Positions 8,469-13,312 of a stretch of 27,189 nucleotides of DNA are shown piece by piece. The notes under the pieces were generated by a model. It made no database searches and had not been told where the DNA came from. It saw only the letters and a program-made list of their open reading frames with translations. Location of the stretch: the UHGV virus genome UHGV-0126599; one strand, given 5' to 3'. A program made the position numbers and the translations under genes. Position 1 is the first letter of the stretch. Each line of letters starts with the position of its first letter. The DNA is from a virus.

Positions 8469-9091
8469 TGGATACCTATAGAGTTACCAAGACTGGTTCC
8501 TTTTAGTCCATCAAACCACCCTGTTGACTTAATTACCGATTCATTTACTGGGGTGGTGGATTTAGTCCCGGAATTCTGCACCGCAGATGTACTAACCCCG
8601 TCCTGCATATCGGATTTATCAGCAACGGTGACATTTTTTGTATGCGTTATGATGACTTCACGCAGGGTAAGCGTGCAGTTCAGCACGTTCTCGCTGGTTT
8701 TATCGGTCGTCACCTCAATGGCTCGCACCAGCATATTGGTGTACACCCTCTTCCCGGTAACCACATCGAACGGTACGCGCTCAAGCTGCATATCCAGCAG
8801 CTTTTGGTATGTCTCCTTTGGGCTAAGCCCAGCGCTAAGACCGATTGAAGATGTATCAATGAAGTCCAGCAACGAACCGCCACCAGCGAAGCCGCATTCC
8901 ATTGTGACTTCGCTGGGGCGCTTATACGCATGATCGGCGATGAAGCCCGAAGCGCTATTCGTTGTTGGCTTCTCCACCGGGTGCTCAGTAATTTCGAGCG
9001 CATCAGAATGCTTTTCGGAGACGACCACGCTGGGAATTAATATGCCAATTCGCCGGGATTGCTGGCGAAAAATAGCGGAGAGAATATCCAT
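8465..9091 (-). CDS. Tail/baseplate protein downstream of the tape measure
   Basis: 208 aa ORF, TAATG-coupled to the tape-measure stop; assigned by synteny only. Confidence 0.5.
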   Translation of the reverse strand: MDILSAIFRQQSRRIGILIPSVVVSEKHSDALEITEHPVEKPTTNSASGFIADHAYKRPSEVTMECGFAGGGSLLDFIDTSSIGLSAGLSPKETYQKLLDMQLERVPFDVVTGKRVYTNMLVRAIEVTTDKTSENVLNCTLTLREVIITHTKNVTVADKSDMQDGVSTSAVQNSGTKSTTPVNESVIKSTGWFDGLKGTSLGNSIGIQ

Positions 9092-11094
9092 TAGCTCGGC
9101 ACCGTTCGAAGTTGTTGAGTTAGTTGTGAATTAACGTTCTTCTGCCGCTCAACTGTGATATTGGCAGCCTCACGTGGATCAGATACACCGTGAATATTAA
9201 TAACCGTTTCTTGCTGTATGTTTTGTGAAGCACCGCCACCAGCGGCCATACGAACCAATTCACTTGGGTAAGGGTTTCTCCCGTTCTCATGATGGATAAT
9301 TCCATTCATCAGAGAGGACATTACCTGCGGATCTTTAAGGTTGAGAATGGCATCAGGAGCCACACCCATCATTTTCGATAACTGAGCAATGTAAGCACCG
9401 GTATTATTTTCATTCCCCGGTGCCCACGTAGAGATTATATCGTTAAGGGTTTGCAGCGGCTTGCCTGTCGTCTTACCTTCAAAGTAGCGCATTAATTGTC
9501 GGGAAAGCGCTTTCAGGCCATCATAGGCAGTTTCAAACCGGGCGAACCTGCCGCCAGGCCTTTCGAGCGTCGCCCCAGATTGCCCACGAAAGTCGATATT
9601 ACCGGGGTTATTATTTCTAATACCTCGTGGAGCTTTAGCAGACTGGGCATGTTGGTCAGGCTCATCATCACCAAACCACCCGCGAATGGTTCTGCCTACG
9701 CTGCGCGGGTCAAATCCCAGATTCTCCTTAACCCAGTCAGCGCTTCTGTTGGCGCTATCCTCTACTGCCGGTGTGGCACTCGGTTGCCCGCTGCCCTGAT
9801 TTAGCAGCTGTTTGCCTATACTAGCGGCCTGCGCCCAGTTGCCATCTTTTATGGCATTCAGCAAATCAGCGATCATGTTCAGCATCTTGCCGAACTCACC
9901 CATTTGCGAAATGAAGTTGCTAAAATCCCACTTTAGGGACCATGACTTGGGGTCAATACCGAGCAACTTAGCCAGCGCTTTTGTCAGGTCCGTAACAGTC
10001 TTTTTCAGGTCACCAATCATTTTGACGGCCTGATCAATTTCAGTCTTCCATTTCCCCCAGTCAATCAGGCTTTTGCCACCTTCTTTCCACGTCTGGTAAT
10101 CATCCAAGAGCAGACCAAGTGCAATAATAAGCGTCGTTATCATGCCCAAGGGTGATGACATGAAAGCGGTATTTAGCAGCCGCCATGCAACCAACAGCCC
10201 ACTGAACAATGCGATAAGCTGCTGCGTGGCTGGGTTCAGCTTTTTGAACCAGGCGATCACACCCTCAACAGCTTGCCCAGTTCGCCATAACACGCGGGTA
10301 ATCGCGTCACCTGCCCAGAGAATTCCTTTGGTGATCTTCGTGATGACCGCTTCAATCTTCGGCCAGTTGTCGAGTATCTGCCTGCGGAAGTTATCAATAC
10401 TGCCAGCAAGGCCACCAGCTAGGTTAGAGCCAATCTTGTCTTTCGCCTGTCCAAGCGTCATCGTCAGATTACGCATGGAGGTCATGAAAATATTGGACTG
10501 TTTAGCCGCTGACTCAGCATTAAAACCAATACGCTTTGCCGTCAACGCGTACTCAGAACTGAGCTGCCCCATCCCTCTGCGCATCGCCATCAGCGTGTTT
10601 TCATCGATGCCAAGCATCTGCGCGTATTGTTTCGCGCGGTAATACGGCATGTTGTTGAGCTTTTGCCCAACGCCAGTAAAGATGGCCGCAGTATCACGCA
10701 TCTTTCCGCTGGCATCGCGGGTCTGGACACCAAGACGGTTCAGGAACCCTTCCGCCCCCGGATTGCTACGCATGAAGCCAGCCAACCCTTCGAGGGAGGA
10801 CATGGCCGACTCAGCGCTGGCGCCAGTTTGCGATGCGGCATAGCCCAGCGCTTTGATGCCCTGGACGCTGGCCCCCGTCCGCTGGGATGCCCAGTAAATT
10901 TTATCCAGACCATTCGCGATCTGGGTGGTAAATCCGACAATGCTCAGCGCTGCTCCTTCCACCACCGCGCCGACCTTCAGAACGTTCGCGGTAACGCCTT
11001 TCAGCACTGCTTCAAACTTATTAGCGCCAGCCTGATCGATATCGAATCCCAGCGAAACAAGGAAATCTTTAATCGTATCTGCGTTACCGCTCAT
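9091..11094 (-). CDS. Tail tape measure protein
   Basis: 667 aa with long helical segments and a membrane-like hydrophobic stretch (ALFSGLLVAWRLL...LIIALGLLL); sits after the chaperone pair. Confidence 0.85.
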   Translation of the reverse strand: MSGNADTIKDFLVSLGFDIDQAGANKFEAVLKGVTANVLKVGAVVEGAALSIVGFTTQIANGLDKIYWASQRTGASVQGIKALGYAASQTGASAESAMSSLEGLAGFMRSNPGAEGFLNRLGVQTRDASGKMRDTAAIFTGVGQKLNNMPYYRAKQYAQMLGIDENTLMAMRRGMGQLSSEYALTAKRIGFNAESAAKQSNIFMTSMRNLTMTLGQAKDKIGSNLAGGLAGSIDNFRRQILDNWPKIEAVITKITKGILWAGDAITRVLWRTGQAVEGVIAWFKKLNPATQQLIALFSGLLVAWRLLNTAFMSSPLGMITTLIIALGLLLDDYQTWKEGGKSLIDWGKWKTEIDQAVKMIGDLKKTVTDLTKALAKLLGIDPKSWSLKWDFSNFISQMGEFGKMLNMIADLLNAIKDGNWAQAASIGKQLLNQGSGQPSATPAVEDSANRSADWVKENLGFDPRSVGRTIRGWFGDDEPDQHAQSAKAPRGIRNNNPGNIDFRGQSGATLERPGGRFARFETAYDGLKALSRQLMRYFEGKTTGKPLQTLNDIISTWAPGNENNTGAYIAQLSKMMGVAPDAILNLKDPQVMSSLMNGIIHHENGRNPYPSELVRMAAGGGASQNIQQETVINIHGVSDPREAANITVERQKNVNSQLTQQLRTVPS

Positions 11095-11327
11095 TGGCCG
11101 CTCTCCATTTATCTACCCGGGCGTCGTTATCCTCGCGCATGTCGAGGTAGTCATTGAGAAGCGCGATGCGGCAAAGGTCTACCGCACCGCTGTTAAGGTC
11201 TTTCTGGTCAATATGGAAGGCAAGCGCCGGGCGAAGAATAAAATCTTCACCGCCCGGCAGGCTGTTGAAGGTTATTCCGCTAGCGGGGTGGGCGTCTCGC
11301 TGGTAGGGAGTCCTTGCAAAAAATTTC
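11084..11327 (-). CDS. Predicted -1 frameshift extension of the tail assembly chaperone (G-T / E-E' type)
   Basis: Slippery A-AAT-TTT-TTG in the chaperone 0 frame (plus 11317-11329). The -1 frame is open from there for about 80 codons and stops at 11084-11086, just past the tape-measure ATG; the other shifted frame stops almost at once. Confidence 0.5.
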
Positions 11328-11697
11328 CCAGCGAGTCGGCGACCACCCGCGCCACCAGTTGCAGCATGGTAAGCAGGTCGATATCGTCAAACGCCATTTC
11401 GCCATGCTGGCAGACCGGCACCCAGCCTTTCATGTGCTCGCGTGAAACAACGGAAAGACAGGGGAACAGGATAGCGTCCACGTCGCCATCACTCAGATCG
11501 GACACAGCATTGGCAATCTTTGGCAGGATGGTAGCCATCGCGCCTTCGGTGTCTTTGCTGCTGATCTTCTCCTGAACGCTCCGGAAGTCCGAAACCATCC
11601 CGGCCAGAACCGGCAACAGCTTGCGGGACACCTTCAGCTGTTCGAAAACGCTGAGCTTTGCGGTGCGATATTTCACGCCTTTAATTTCGAATTCCAT
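11272..11697 (-). CDS. Tail assembly chaperone
   Basis: 141 aa ORF between tube and tape measure, with the frameshift signature in its 3' end. Confidence 0.7.
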   Translation of the reverse strand: MEFEIKGVKYRTAKLSVFEQLKVSRKLLPVLAGMVSDFRSVQEKISSKDTEGAMATILPKIANAVSDLSDGDVDAILFPCLSVVSREHMKGWVPVCQHGEMAFDDIDLLTMLQLVARVVADSLGNFLQGLPTSETPTPLAE

Positions 11698-11700
11698 GCG

Positions 11701-12141
11701 TTAAAACTCCCCGAGAAGCTGGTCAATCTTGCCGCAGTCGAATACCCAGGCGACGGTTCCGCCCTCTTTAGCGTTATTGAAATCAGGCTGTTTCTGGAAT
11801 GCACACGAACGCGCAGTAGAAATATCACCCGATGCCGTGTTGCGAATGACGATCACGTTATTGCCCCAGGTGGCAGAGGACTGGCTTTGCGCGTTATACG
11901 CCAGAGACAGCTTTTTATTCACCGGGGAGGTTTTGAGTAGCGTCACCGTAATGGTGCCTGACTTATCGGCGTGCAGGCTGTGCATCACCTCGCCATCGGC
12001 ACCGATGGTCATGGTGTTTTTGTTGCCGCCCATGGTCTGGGTGATACCTTCCTCAGAGTTCGCAGAACCCTGACCAAGATCGATAACGCCGGTCGGCCCG
12101 GTGAGCGACGCGGTTACATCGAGAAAAGAATAAGTTGCCAT
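11701..12141 (-). CDS. Tail tube protein
   Basis: 146 aa, immediately downstream of the sheath gene. Confidence 0.7.
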   Translation of the reverse strand: MATYSFLDVTASLTGPTGVIDLGQGSANSEEGITQTMGGNKNTMTIGADGEVMHSLHADKSGTITVTLLKTSPVNKKLSLAYNAQSQSSATWGNNVIVIRNTASGDISTARSCAFQKQPDFNNAKEGGTVAWVFDCGKIDQLLGEF

Positions 12142-12151
12142 TTATCGCTCC

Positions 12152-13312
12152 TTAGCGAACCACGTTGATCTGCACATCGGCATAATGAACTGCGCCAGCC
12201 AGCTTACAGGCCACCTGGATTAACGGTGCTTTGCGCGCTTCGCGGTCGGCCTGCGCCTGTTCGGACAGCGGTTGCGCATACACGTAATAGCCTTTGGTCA
12301 GCGTATCGCCGGAATTCAGCTGTCCGATAGGGCCACCATTCCACACGCCAGCAGCTACCAGACCGTTCGTGACGGACTGATCCATGGACTGTTCAACGTT
12401 GGAAAGCAGACGGGTAACACCGGCATCAGTCTGCGGAATTTTGGTGGTGCTGGTGTAAAGCAGGTTATAGAGGTTGGTCTGAACGTAGTTCTGCAACCAG
12501 TCGAGCCCGTGGCGCTCGTCGAAGAAGTCACCGTTCGCCATGACACCCTGTTGCAGGATCGCCGTGTCGTTGGCGTAGTACACGAACACGTTCGCATTCT
12601 TCGTATCCACCGCAGCCGCCTGGCCTACCGTCAACGTTTCGTAGGTTACGCTTGGTTCCTGTTTGAACTTCAGGGTAATGGTGGTATTGCTGCCGTTGAA
12701 ATTGACAGTAAACGCACGACCGAAAGCAGAAACCGCTGCGTAAGGGCTGCTGGTGGAATACTGAATAAAGGTACGGGCATACTTGCCAGCCTTTAATTTC
12801 GACGCAACATCGGTCGTCGAAGTCGTGCTGATAATCTCGGCGTCGGCAGAGGTCACACCAAAGATACGGCTAAGGCTGGACGCTTCAATAAGTTTGGCGA
12901 CCTCAATCACGTCATCAGCATCAAGCACATCGCCACCAGCGACAACATCATCAGCGACAACCAGCCCATACCAGTTGGTATATTGCAGGCAGGCATTAAC
13001 GGCTTGCACGATAGTTTCAGTATCTCCACTCTCGGAAGAACTCAGCGTCTTCGCCCAGCGACCAACATAAACCTGTGTCGGCTTCGGTGACTGGCTGAAG
13101 AAAACCTGCGCTGCTTTATATTCCGGGCTGTCGACACCGAAGTCTTCGCCAATGTCCTCAATGGAAGCATATAGGCGAGTACGTTCTGTCACCGGAATGA
13201 CAGTGGAAGAGCCAAGGATTAGCAATGCGCCGAAGTTACGACCAGTAGCCGCTTTCGGCGAGATGATCACATCAACGTTTACAACGTTGGATACAGGTAA
13301 GCCCTGCGTCAT
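12152..13312 (-). CDS. Contractile tail sheath protein
   Basis: 386 aa; size, position and sequence character fit a sheath. Confidence 0.8.

What the first reader, a model, noticed from the sequence alone, without database searches (positions are those of the whole stretch)
11084..11330. Programmed -1 ribosomal frameshift predicted in the tail assembly chaperone
The chaperone 0 frame contains the slippery run G-GGA-AAT-TTT-TTG about 17 codons before its stop. Only the -1 frame stays open from there, for about 80 codons, and it terminates at 11084-11086 just inside the tape-measure gene. This matches the conserved G/GT (lambda) and E/E' (P2) arrangement, in which the long product is needed for tail assembly. 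The 178-nt gap between chaperone and tape measure otherwise has no ORF in the track.
Basis: partly seen in the sequence, partly recalled or inferred. Interest (0 to 1): 0.45.

Follow-up and report, generated by a model that had tools for sequence, protein, structure and literature searches.

The report
Tail chaperone -1 ribosomal frameshift site
This E. coli prophage almost certainly makes a short and a long version of its tail assembly chaperone by letting some ribosomes slip back one base, which is the ordinary, well-known arrangement in long-tailed phages, though public annotation of this prophage misses it.

Summary
On the minus strand, the 141-codon chaperone gene (11697..11272, Pfam Phage_TAC_15) contains the in-phase tract G_GGA_AAT_TTT_TTG (11329..11317). 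This tract holds three overlapping X_XXY_YYZ heptamers. From it, only the -1 frame stays open. It runs 79 codons to TAA 11086..11084, 8 nt past the tape-measure ATG (11094).

The -1 frame is real coding sequence:
- It matches Pfam DUF6889 (1.3e-11) and phrog_4364 (2.4e-17).
- It is open in 61 of 61 unique relatives and has no conserved start codon.
- Variation is highest at its third codon positions, and dN/dS is about 0.16.
- Protein conservation begins exactly at the slip site.

Synonymous sites in the tract are frozen. GGA, AAT, TTT and TTG make up 98-100% of codons there, against 10%, 41%, 52% and 12% elsewhere in the same genes. Phages at only 30-40% identity (Burkholderia, Bordetella, Ralstonia, Acinetobacter) keep DUF6889 in the -1 frame at the same position, with different heptamers.

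No conserved stimulatory RNA structure exists, as in P2 E/E+E', which also shifts at TTTTTTG.

GenBank already annotates the frameshift product in relatives (Klebsiella phage Mulock, Burkholderia phage Magia). RefSeq instead calls a 27-aa "DUF6889 protein" that starts at ATC. This is a new member of a known kind, of modest interest.

The parts
11272..11697 (-). Tail assembly chaperone, 0-frame (short) product, 141 aa
   Evidence: ORF. Pfam Phage_TAC_15, 4.4e-33 (114.9 bits, cut-off 22). phrog_1688 tail assembly chaperone, 4e-57.
11317..11329 (-). Slippery tract G_GGA_AAT_TTT_TTG, made of three overlapping in-phase heptamers: G_GGA_AAT 11329-11323, A_AAT_TTT 11326-11320 and T_TTT_TTG 11323-11317
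   Evidence: Sequence. The T6 run is present and in the same phase in 63 of 63 related loci. At the site, GGA is 58/59, AAT 57/57, TTT 59/59 and TTG 54/55. Elsewhere in the same genes these codons are 10%, 41%, 52% and 12%.
11087..11323 (-). -1 frame extension, 79 sense codons: FFARTPYQRD...KWRAANER. The predicted long product is 204 aa (residues 1-125 of the chaperone plus 79).
   Evidence: Translation. Open in 61 of 61 unique relatives, while the other sense frames are open in 0 of 61. Codon-position entropy 0.73/0.61/1.41 and median dN/dS 0.16. Protein alignment.
11099..11206 (-). DUF6889 domain match within the extension (extension residues 40-75)
   Evidence: Pfam PF21829, 1.3e-11, 44.5 bits against a cut-off of 23.9. 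phrog_4364, 2.4e-17, over extension residues 26-79.
11084..11086 (-). TAA stop of the -1 frame, 8 nt downstream of the first base of the tape-measure ATG
   Evidence: In 56 related loci where a tape-measure start was identified, the -1 stop lies 1-17 nt past that ATG or GTG, or further where the script picked an upstream TTG.
9091..11094 (-). Tape measure protein gene (667 aa) with a C-terminal lytic transglycosylase region
   Evidence: phrog_2276 tail length tape measure protein, 1.3e-237. RefSeq calls it 'transglycosylase SLT domain-containing protein'.
11701..12141 (-). Tail tube gene immediately upstream (context)
   Evidence: Pfam KPP10_Orf10, 5.8e-60. Annotated as DUF3277 / Phage_Tube_PhiTE in relatives.
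12152..13312 (-). Tail sheath gene (context; contractile tail)
   Evidence: Pfam DUF3383, 4.6e-102. phrog_205 tail sheath, 4.6e-129.

Best explanation

Most ribosomes read the 0 frame and make the 141-aa chaperone. A minority slip back one base on the tract G_GGA_AAU_UUU_UUG. They then continue in the -1 frame for 79 codons and make a 204-aa protein, the chaperone body plus a C-terminal DUF6889 domain.

The slip is driven by tRNA re-pairing on the heptamers. The most likely sites are A_AAU_UUU and/or U_UUU_UUG. G_GGA_AAU is possible too. No downstream RNA structure is involved. Shifting on either of the first two heptamers gives ...SLGN-FFARTP.... Shifting on the third gives ...SLGNFL-ARTP....

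By analogy with lambda G/GT and P2 E/E+E', the short form would coat the tape measure protein. The rare long form would use its extra domain to recruit tube subunits, so that the tube and sheath polymerise to the measured length.

Shown here: the sequence anatomy, the coding status and conservation of the -1 frame, and the nucleotide-level constraint on the slip tract.
Inferred: that ribosomes actually shift, which heptamer they use, the ratio of the two products, and the role of DUF6889.
For: (1) Position between the tube and tape-measure genes, with Phage_TAC_15 membership.

(2) The -1 frame matches DUF6889 at 1.3e-11 and phrog_4364 at 2.4e-17.

(3) In 63 loci from many Enterobacterales genera (47-100% aa identity), the T6 run is always in the same phase. 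The -1 extension is 77-84 codons in 62 of them and ends just past the tape-measure start.

(4) Only the -1 sense frame is open across the gap, in 61 of 61 unique relatives. The other sense frames are open in 0 of 61 and the antisense frames in 2-22 of 61.

(5) Third-position entropy is 1.41 bits against 0.73 and 0.61, and dN/dS is about 0.16. No alignment column carries a conserved start codon that is also present in the window.

(6) Conservation in the -1 frame (FFARTP) starts immediately at the tract, and the wobble pattern switches frame there.

(7) Synonymous sites of GGA, AAT, TTT and TTG are frozen at 98-100%, against 10%, 41%, 52% and 12% elsewhere in the same 62 genes.

(8) 39 of 40 phage records match the conceptual fusion as two pieces. 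Seven distant phages at 30-40% identity have DUF6889 in the -1 frame ending at the tape-measure start. Their heptamers differ (C_CCT_TTT, G_GGA_AAT, G_GGT_TTT/T_TTT_TTC) but sit at the homologous LGxF position.

(9) Annotated frameshift products exist in Klebsiella phage Mulock and Burkholderia phage Magia.

(10) A rare +1T variant (T7) fuses the two parts in frame exactly at the tract, giving ...SLGNFFAYTPYQ....

(11) P2 shifts at TTTTTTG without a hairpin (PMC3091744). H_HH.U_UU.Y heptamers, which include A_AAU_UUU, are among the most shift-prone in E. coli (PMC4066793).
Against: There is no direct protein or ribosome-profiling evidence.

No stimulatory stem-loop or pseudoknot lies at 5-9 nt. 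The first 45 nt downstream fold no better than shuffles (mean z +0.56 over 62 loci), and RNAalifold finds no consensus structure.

G_GGA_AAU and U_UUU_UUG are not in the top efficiency class for E. coli in reporter assays (PMC4066793), so the shift rate may be low.

One of the two search patterns used to collect relatives ([AG]DSLGNFL) selects for the amino acids at the site. Amino-acid conservation there is therefore partly by construction. The synonymous-site and frame evidence is not affected.
Confidence: 0.9

Rival explanations
1. Transcriptional slippage. RNA polymerase occasionally adds one extra U on the T6 run, producing an mRNA in which the chaperone and DUF6889 are in frame. The protein would be the same but the mechanism different.
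For: The invariant element across all relatives is the homopolymeric T6 run. A genomic T7 variant gives exactly the fused protein. Sequence alone cannot separate the two mechanisms.
Against: Six T is shorter than the runs generally associated with efficient slippage by bacterial RNA polymerase (general knowledge; see the review PMC5009743). The frozen GGA and AAT codons extend the constraint beyond the T run, into what tRNA re-pairing needs (A_AAT_TTT, G_GGA_AAT). Distant relatives have no long homopolymer at the site, only heptamers such as G_GGA_AAT followed by ACT (Bordetella phage) or C_CCT_TTT (Burkholderia phages).
Confidence: 0.06
2. DUF6889 is an independent small gene translated from its own start in the gap, as RefSeq annotates it (27 aa, starting at window 11167).
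For: PGAP annotates a separate 'DUF6889 family protein' in every close E. coli match. Databases hold many 27-93 aa stand-alone calls for this domain.
Against: The RefSeq start is ATC. The window has no ATG, GTG or TTG ORF of 20 aa or more in that frame. No start-codon column is conserved: the best, 89% ATG, is CTC in the window and lies after 58 conserved residues. Purifying selection covers the whole 79 codons, starting at the slip tract. The stand-alone database entries have different, arbitrary N-termini.
Confidence: 0.03
3. A chance open frame plus a chance slippery run, with no second product.
For: A single 79-codon open frame in G+C-rich DNA and one in-phase heptamer per gene are each unremarkable on their own.
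Against: Family matches, conservation of the open frame, dN/dS of 0.16 and frozen synonymous sites across dozens of genera.
Confidence: 0.01

Closest known systems
Klebsiella phage Mulock CPT_Mulock_014/015 (MN098327), 'tape measure chaperone' and 'tape measure chaperone frameshift product'
   Same: Same gene family (about 56-68% identity) and the same order of tube, chaperone and tape-measure genes. It has the identical GGGAAATTTTTTG tract in the same phase. Its -1 extension, FFERTPRQ...KWREANER, ends inside the tape-measure gene.
   Different: It is a different host and phage. The frameshift there is an annotator's prediction, not an experiment, and the genome announcement does not mention it.
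Bacteriophage P2 E / E+E'
   Same: A contractile-tailed phage with the chaperone gene between the tube and tape-measure genes. It makes a -1 shift at TTTTTTG near the end of the short ORF, with no downstream hairpin (PMC3091744). The window contains the same heptamer in phase.
   Different: No detectable sequence homology: Pfam gives only Phage_TAC_15 and DUF6889. The window's tract carries two further overlapping heptamers. The products are larger (141 and 204 aa, against 91 and 142 aa).
Bacteriophage lambda G / GT
   Same: The same logic: a short abundant chaperone plus a rare -1 frameshift fusion ending at the tape-measure gene. Both are needed for tail assembly and both are absent from virions (PMC5009743). 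The slip site begins with G_GGA_AA.
   Different: Lambda uses G_GGA_AAG (Lys tRNA) and has a non-contractile tail. There is no detectable sequence similarity. The role of DUF6889 as a counterpart of the T domain is inferred only.
Pakpunavirus / Vandenendeviridae TAC-N / TAC-NC locus (Pseudomonas phage Adele; PMC12846349)
   Same: The tail module is related (tube family KPP10_Orf10, sheath DUF3383). The downstream ORF is routinely mis-annotated as a separate hypothetical protein. A -1 frame is conserved, with a poly-T motif (GTTTTT) at the end of the short gene.
   Different: Homology between that chaperone and this one was not tested here. The motif differs in detail, and those are lytic Pseudomonas phages.
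Burkholderia phage Magia gp15/gp16 (NC_070954)
   Same: A distant homologue (about 37% identity over the matched part) with an annotated -1 frameshift product. DUF6889 is in the -1 frame and ends 7 nt into the tape-measure gene.
   Different: The slip heptamer is C_CCT_TTT rather than the A/T run, and the chaperone is longer (186 aa).

Membership tests
Conserved tail-assembly-chaperone -1 frameshift of long-tailed dsDNA phages (lambda G/GT type; Xu, Hendrix & Duda 2004, as summarised in PMC5009743) | The gene pair lies between the major tail/tube gene and the tape-measure gene | tested here: met
   The order is sheath 13312-12152, tube 12141-11701, chaperone 11697-11272, tape measure 11094-9091.
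Conserved tail-assembly-chaperone -1 frameshift of long-tailed dsDNA phages (lambda G/GT type; Xu, Hendrix & Duda 2004, as summarised in PMC5009743) | The second reading frame overlaps the 3' end of the first, in the -1 frame, and lacks its own initiation site | tested here: met
   The -1 frame is open from codon 104 to 11084. No canonical-start ORF of 20 aa or more exists in it. No start column is conserved.
Conserved tail-assembly-chaperone -1 frameshift of long-tailed dsDNA phages (lambda G/GT type; Xu, Hendrix & Duda 2004, as summarised in PMC5009743) | An in-phase X_XXY_YYZ slippery heptamer lies in the overlap | tested here: met
   There are three overlapping heptamers at 11329-11317. 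Their synonymous sites are frozen.
Conserved tail-assembly-chaperone -1 frameshift of long-tailed dsDNA phages (lambda G/GT type; Xu, Hendrix & Duda 2004, as summarised in PMC5009743) | The arrangement is conserved among relatives despite sequence divergence | tested here: met
   It holds in 62 of 63 genome loci, in 61 of 61 unique gaps, and in 7 distant phages.
Conserved tail-assembly-chaperone -1 frameshift of long-tailed dsDNA phages (lambda G/GT type; Xu, Hendrix & Duda 2004, as summarised in PMC5009743) | Both short and long proteins are made in a fixed ratio, and both are required for tail assembly | not testable with these tools
   This needs proteomics or western blots and genetics.
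Pfam PF21822 Phage_TAC_15 | Score above the gathering threshold | tested here: met
   114.9 bits against 22; the match covers residues 6-128.
Pfam PF21829 DUF6889 | Score above the gathering threshold, in the -1 frame translation | tested here: met
   44.5 bits against 23.9.
P2 gpE / lambda gpG sequence families | Detectable sequence similarity to those chaperone families | tested here: not met
   The Pfam scan at E<=0.01 returned only Phage_TAC_15 and DUF6889. The locus works like these systems but is not a sequence-family member.
Structure-stimulated -1 frameshift sites (IS3/IS911, dnaX type) | A stable hairpin or pseudoknot 5-9 nt downstream of the heptamer | tested here: not met
   z = -0.4 for the window. 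Mean z is +0.56 over 62 loci for the first 45 nt. There is no consensus structure and no Rfam hit.
Structure-stimulated -1 frameshift sites (IS3/IS911, dnaX type) | An upstream Shine-Dalgarno-like stimulator about 10-14 nt before the site | tested here: inconclusive
   GGGTGGTC (11348-11341) ends 14 nt before A_AAT_TTT. GGTGG is present in 49 of 60 relatives. Its Val codon is GTG in 56 of 59, against 50% elsewhere. Pairing with 16S rRNA and any effect are untested.

The most novel reading that the evidence does not exclude
The invariant 13-nt tract may be a structure-independent 'tandem' frameshift cassette. Three overlapping heptamers would give ribosomes successive chances to slip. The unusually frozen GGGUGGU element 14 nt upstream could help by pairing with 16S rRNA. 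Together these would set a long:short ratio different from lambda's roughly 1:30. DUF6889 would then be a previously unassigned counterpart of the lambda T domain that recruits DUF3277/KPP10-type tube protein in this large group of contractile-tailed temperate phages.
Probability: 0.25. Interest if true: 0.35.

Novelty: new member of a known kind. Interest (0 to 1): 0.25.

Why it matters
The main value is correct annotation. The same prophage family occurs in 119 of 5,426 complete E. coli genomes and in many other Enterobacterales. RefSeq currently shows a 27-aa 'DUF6889 family protein' with an ATC start instead of a 204-aa frameshift product.

The analysis gives DUF6889 / phrog_4364 a context: it is the C-terminal, -1-frame domain of the long chaperone isoform.

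It also provides a clean comparative example of a frameshift site held in place by selection on synonymous positions, without any RNA structure. It does not change the understanding of phage tail assembly.

Tried and rejected
- **Downstream stimulatory structure.** I folded 73-nt and 136-nt stretches of the window. I also folded the 45-nt and 110-nt stretches that follow the T6 run in 62 unique loci and ran RNAalifold on two alignments. Nothing is conserved.
  - The window's 8-bp stem CUCGCUGG/CCAGCGAG brackets the tract, but its pairs hold in only 35-90% of relatives, without covariation.
  - The hairpin at 11258-11226 lies about 59 nt downstream and is not conserved.
- **Rfam.** An E-value search of 10900-11800 found no family.
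- **Promoter and terminator scan.** Nothing on the minus strand in or near the gap.
- **Structure prediction.** The natural fusion P0004, run as a single sequence, gave pLDDT 39. This is unusable, so no fold search was run.
- **PDB sequence search.** The 204-aa product has no relative with a solved structure.
- **NCBIfam.** No model matches either part.
- **In-frame fusions in databases.** I considered whether these mean that no frameshift is needed.
  - P0001 and P0081 read the -1 frame from well upstream of the tract (in P0001 with further local disruption), which is most simply explained by upstream indels or assembly errors.
  - P0004 is a T7 variant. Its pattern has 0 matches in IMG/VR, against 108 for the T6 form of the same lineage. 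Out-of-frame is therefore the norm.
- **Mulock genome paper.** It says nothing about the frameshift.
Full report
**What is there**

All genes in this part of the window run on the minus strand. Their order is tail sheath (13312..12152; Pfam DUF3383 4.6e-102, phrog_205 'tail sheath'), tail tube (12141..11701; KPP10_Orf10 5.8e-60), a 141-codon ORF (11697..11272) and a 667-codon tape-measure gene (11094..9091; phrog_2276 1.3e-237). The 141-aa protein is a tail assembly chaperone (Pfam Phage_TAC_15 4.4e-33; phrog_1688 4e-57).

Its 0-frame reads ...TCG CTG GGA AAT TTT TTG CAA... with CTG at 11331-11329. The tract G_GGA_AAT_TTT_TTG (11329..11317) therefore holds three overlapping, correctly phased X_XXY_YYZ heptamers.

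From this point the 0 frame ends 15 codons later (TAA 11274..11272) and the +1 frame stops after 16 codons. The -1 frame runs 79 codons to TAA 11086..11084, 8 nt past the first base of the tape-measure ATG (11094). No ORF of 20 aa or more with a canonical start exists in that frame. The gap is 177 nt rather than 178.

**Is the -1 frame coding?**

Yes. Its translation matches Pfam DUF6889 (1.3e-11, 44.5 bits against a cut-off of 23.9) and phrog_4364 (2.4e-17).

I collected 65 distinct loci from one genome per species (47-100% aa identity; Escherichia, Enterobacter, Photorhabdus, Pantoea, Serratia, Rahnella, Cedecea and others). I analysed the 62 with a complete chaperone gene, plus the window itself.
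- In all 63 the T6 run is present in the same phase.
- In 62 the -1 extension is 77-84 codons and ends a few bases past the tape-measure start.
- The single exception (L028) has a 5-nt duplication inside the extension, and the rest of the domain continues intact in another frame.
- Across 61 unique gap sequences, the -1 sense frame is stop-free in 61. The other two sense frames are stop-free in 0, and the antisense frames in 22, 2 and 17.
- The aligned extension proteins share a clear motif pattern: FFxRTP...LPGGEDxxxRP...G.VDL.DIAxMNDxL...N...W.
- Per-codon-position entropy in the -1 frame is 0.73/0.61/1.41 bits. Median dN/dS for unsaturated pairs is 0.16.
- No alignment column holds a conserved start codon that would explain the conserved N-terminal 58 residues. 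The best column (89% ATG) is CTC in the window.

**Is the slip tract under selection as nucleotides?**

Yes. In 59 unique sequences the codons at the site are GGA 58/59, AAT 57/57 Asn, TTT 59/59 and TTG 54/55 Leu. Third positions of the ten codons upstream carry 1.2-1.8 bits of entropy. Elsewhere in the same 62 chaperone genes, GGA is 10% of Gly codons, AAT 41% of Asn, TTT 52% of Phe and TTG 12% of Leu.

Immediately after the tract, the position of highest variability moves from 0-frame position 3 to 0-frame position 2, which is -1-frame position 3. Selection on the -1 frame therefore begins at the tract.

One caveat applies. One of the two peptide patterns used to find relatives was [AG]DSLGNFL, so amino-acid conservation at the site is partly by construction. 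Synonymous-site and frame conservation are not.

**Which heptamer?**

- T_TTT_TTN is present in 59 of 59.
- A_AAT_TTT is present in 57 of 59; the two exceptions have AGT.
- G_GGA_AAT is present in 52 of 59. Five relatives have CTT or CTC before GGA, at the level expected from Leu codon usage.

P2 E/E+E' is reported to shift at TTTTTTG with no downstream hairpin (PMC3091744). In E. coli reporter assays the most shift-prone classes include H_HH.U_UU.Y, which covers A_AAU_UUU. They do not include G_GG.A_AA.U or U_UU.U_UU.G (PMC4066793).

A Bordetella phage homologue has only G_GGA_AAT at the homologous position, so that heptamer can evidently serve too. I conclude that the shift occurs somewhere on this tract, most probably on A_AAU_UUU and/or U_UUU_UUG. 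The product is 204 aa in every case, and only residue 127 (F or L) depends on the site.

**Stimulators**

There is no stable structure at the canonical 5-9 nt spacing. The window gives z = -0.4. The first 45 nt after the T6 run in 62 loci give mean z +0.56. RNAalifold finds no consensus pairing downstream or around the site, and Rfam finds nothing. The lack of a hairpin matches what is reported for P2 (PMC3091744), and heptamers alone are significantly shift-prone in E. coli reporter assays (PMC4066793).

One untested lead remains. The Val codon seven codons upstream is GTG in 56 of 59 (50% elsewhere). This forms GGGTGGTC at 11348-11341, 14 nt before A_AAT_TTT, and it might pair with the 3' end of 16S rRNA.

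**Depth of conservation and prior knowledge**

A tblastn of the conceptual 204-aa product against 50,697 phage records found 40 records. In 39 of them the match consists of two adjacent pieces.

In seven distant phages (Burkholderia Magia, BgManors32 and vB_E192a, Bordetella IFTN9, Ralstonia PY059YO380, Acinetobacter Ab105-1phi, Edwardsiella ZHS; 30-40% identity), the DUF6889-like sequence is in the -1 frame. It ends within a few bases of the tape-measure start. Five of them carry different heptamers at the conserved LGxF position. Edwardsiella ZHS and vB_E192a have no canonical in-phase heptamer there.

GenBank/RefSeq records for Klebsiella phage Mulock and Burkholderia phage Magia already carry a joined CDS noted as 'tape measure chaperone frameshift product'. 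A 2025 paper argues for the same thing in Pakpunavirus and Andersonviridae, whose tail modules belong to the same tube and sheath families (PMC12846349).

The window itself is 100% identical over this kilobase to an E. coli chromosome (WEM25). Related sequence occurs in 119 of 5,426 complete E. coli genomes. There RefSeq annotates a 27-aa 'DUF6889 family protein' that begins at an ATC codon (window 11167). This looks like an artefact of profile-guided annotation without the frameshift.

In a library of 1.84 billion representative proteins, DUF6889 appears almost only as 27-93 aa fragments with arbitrary starts.

**Fusions in databases**

Three proteins in the 5.8-billion-sequence search carry both domains. 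Two read the -1 frame from well upstream of the tract (one with further local disruption), which points to upstream indels or assembly errors. The third (P0004, 213 aa; a 16-member cluster that includes fragments and UniRef100_W1F673 from E. coli) is fused exactly at the tract, because the run is T7 instead of T6. The T7 pattern has 0 matches in IMG/VR, against 108 for the T6 form of the same lineage. The fusion is therefore a rare +1T variant. It shows what the long product looks like, and it shows that the out-of-frame arrangement is the selected state.

**Mechanism and function**

The most likely mechanism is tRNA re-pairing on the heptamers, giving a minority long product (confidence about 0.9 that a recoding event joins the two frames). 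The functional model is taken from lambda (PMC5009743) and is inference here. In it, the short form coats the tape measure, and the long form's extra domain recruits tube protein.

Transcriptional slippage on the T6 run would give the same protein. I rate it at about 0.06, because the constraint extends to GGA and AAT and because distant relatives lack a homopolymer. Independent initiation (0.03) and chance (0.01) are effectively excluded.

**Verdict**

The finding is real and correctly interpreted. It is an ordinary instance of a well-known phage recoding event, already annotated in relatives. Its value lies mainly in correcting annotation and in placing DUF6889. The result rests on comparative sequence analysis only.

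Noticed in passing
window 11084-11167 (minus strand); L001 2234-2317: In every close E. coli match, RefSeq/PGAP annotates a separate 27-aa 'DUF6889 family protein' (WP_371831623.1). It starts at an ATC codon, with no canonical start. It is most likely a fragment of the frameshift product.
   Followed up: yes
L003 2082-2723 (Logan SRR23924998); proteins P0004, P0121 (UniRef100_W1F673): A related E. coli prophage lineage has variants with T7 instead of T6 at the slip tract. This fuses the chaperone and DUF6889 in frame (213 aa). The T7 pattern has 0 hits in IMG/VR, against 108 for T6. It could be a homopolymer mutation in defective prophages or an assembly error. Such a phage would make only the long form.
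   Followed up: partly
L028 (Enterobacter sp. R1(2018)), about 100-120 nt after the T6 run: This is the only locus with a truncated -1 extension. It has a 5-nt duplication (CCGGC) at the 3' arm of the local GC-rich hairpin, and the rest of DUF6889 continues intact in another frame. The downstream gene does not look like the usual tape measure.
   Followed up: partly
window 11341-11348 (minus strand), GGGTGGTC: The Val codon seven codons before AAT is GTG in 56 of 59 relatives (50% elsewhere). This gives a GGTGG/GGGTGGT element 14-16 nt upstream of the slip site that could pair with the 16S rRNA 3' end. It is a possible Shine-Dalgarno-like stimulator, or it may be coincidence.
   Followed up: partly
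window 11226-11258 (minus strand): A perfect 8-bp inverted repeat, GCCGGGCG-N17-CGCCCGGC, which can extend through an inner GAAG/CUUC stem. It lies inside the -1 extension, about 59 nt after the tract. It is too far away to act as a classical stimulator, it is not conserved in relatives, and no T-run follows it.
   Followed up: yes
window 11084-11094 (minus strand): The tape-measure ATG overlaps the end of the -1 frame (ATGAGCGGTAA). The same 1-17 nt overlap recurs in nearly all relatives. This suggests translational coupling, or at least a fixed end point for the long product.
   Followed up: partly
window 9091-11094 (minus strand): The C-terminal third of the tape-measure protein matches lytic transglycosylase / endolysin families (phrog_873 residues 476-655, phrog_7182). 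RefSeq names the whole protein 'transglycosylase SLT domain-containing protein' rather than tape measure.
   Followed up: no
L263 (Edwardsiella phage vB_EpM_ZHS) and L264 (Burkholderia phage vB_E192a): These distant homologues keep DUF6889 in the -1 frame but have no canonical in-phase X_XXY_YYZ heptamer at the LGxF position (GGG GAT TTT ATG; GGT TCT TTT ATC). If they shift, they may do so on a T_TTT tetramer.
   Followed up: no
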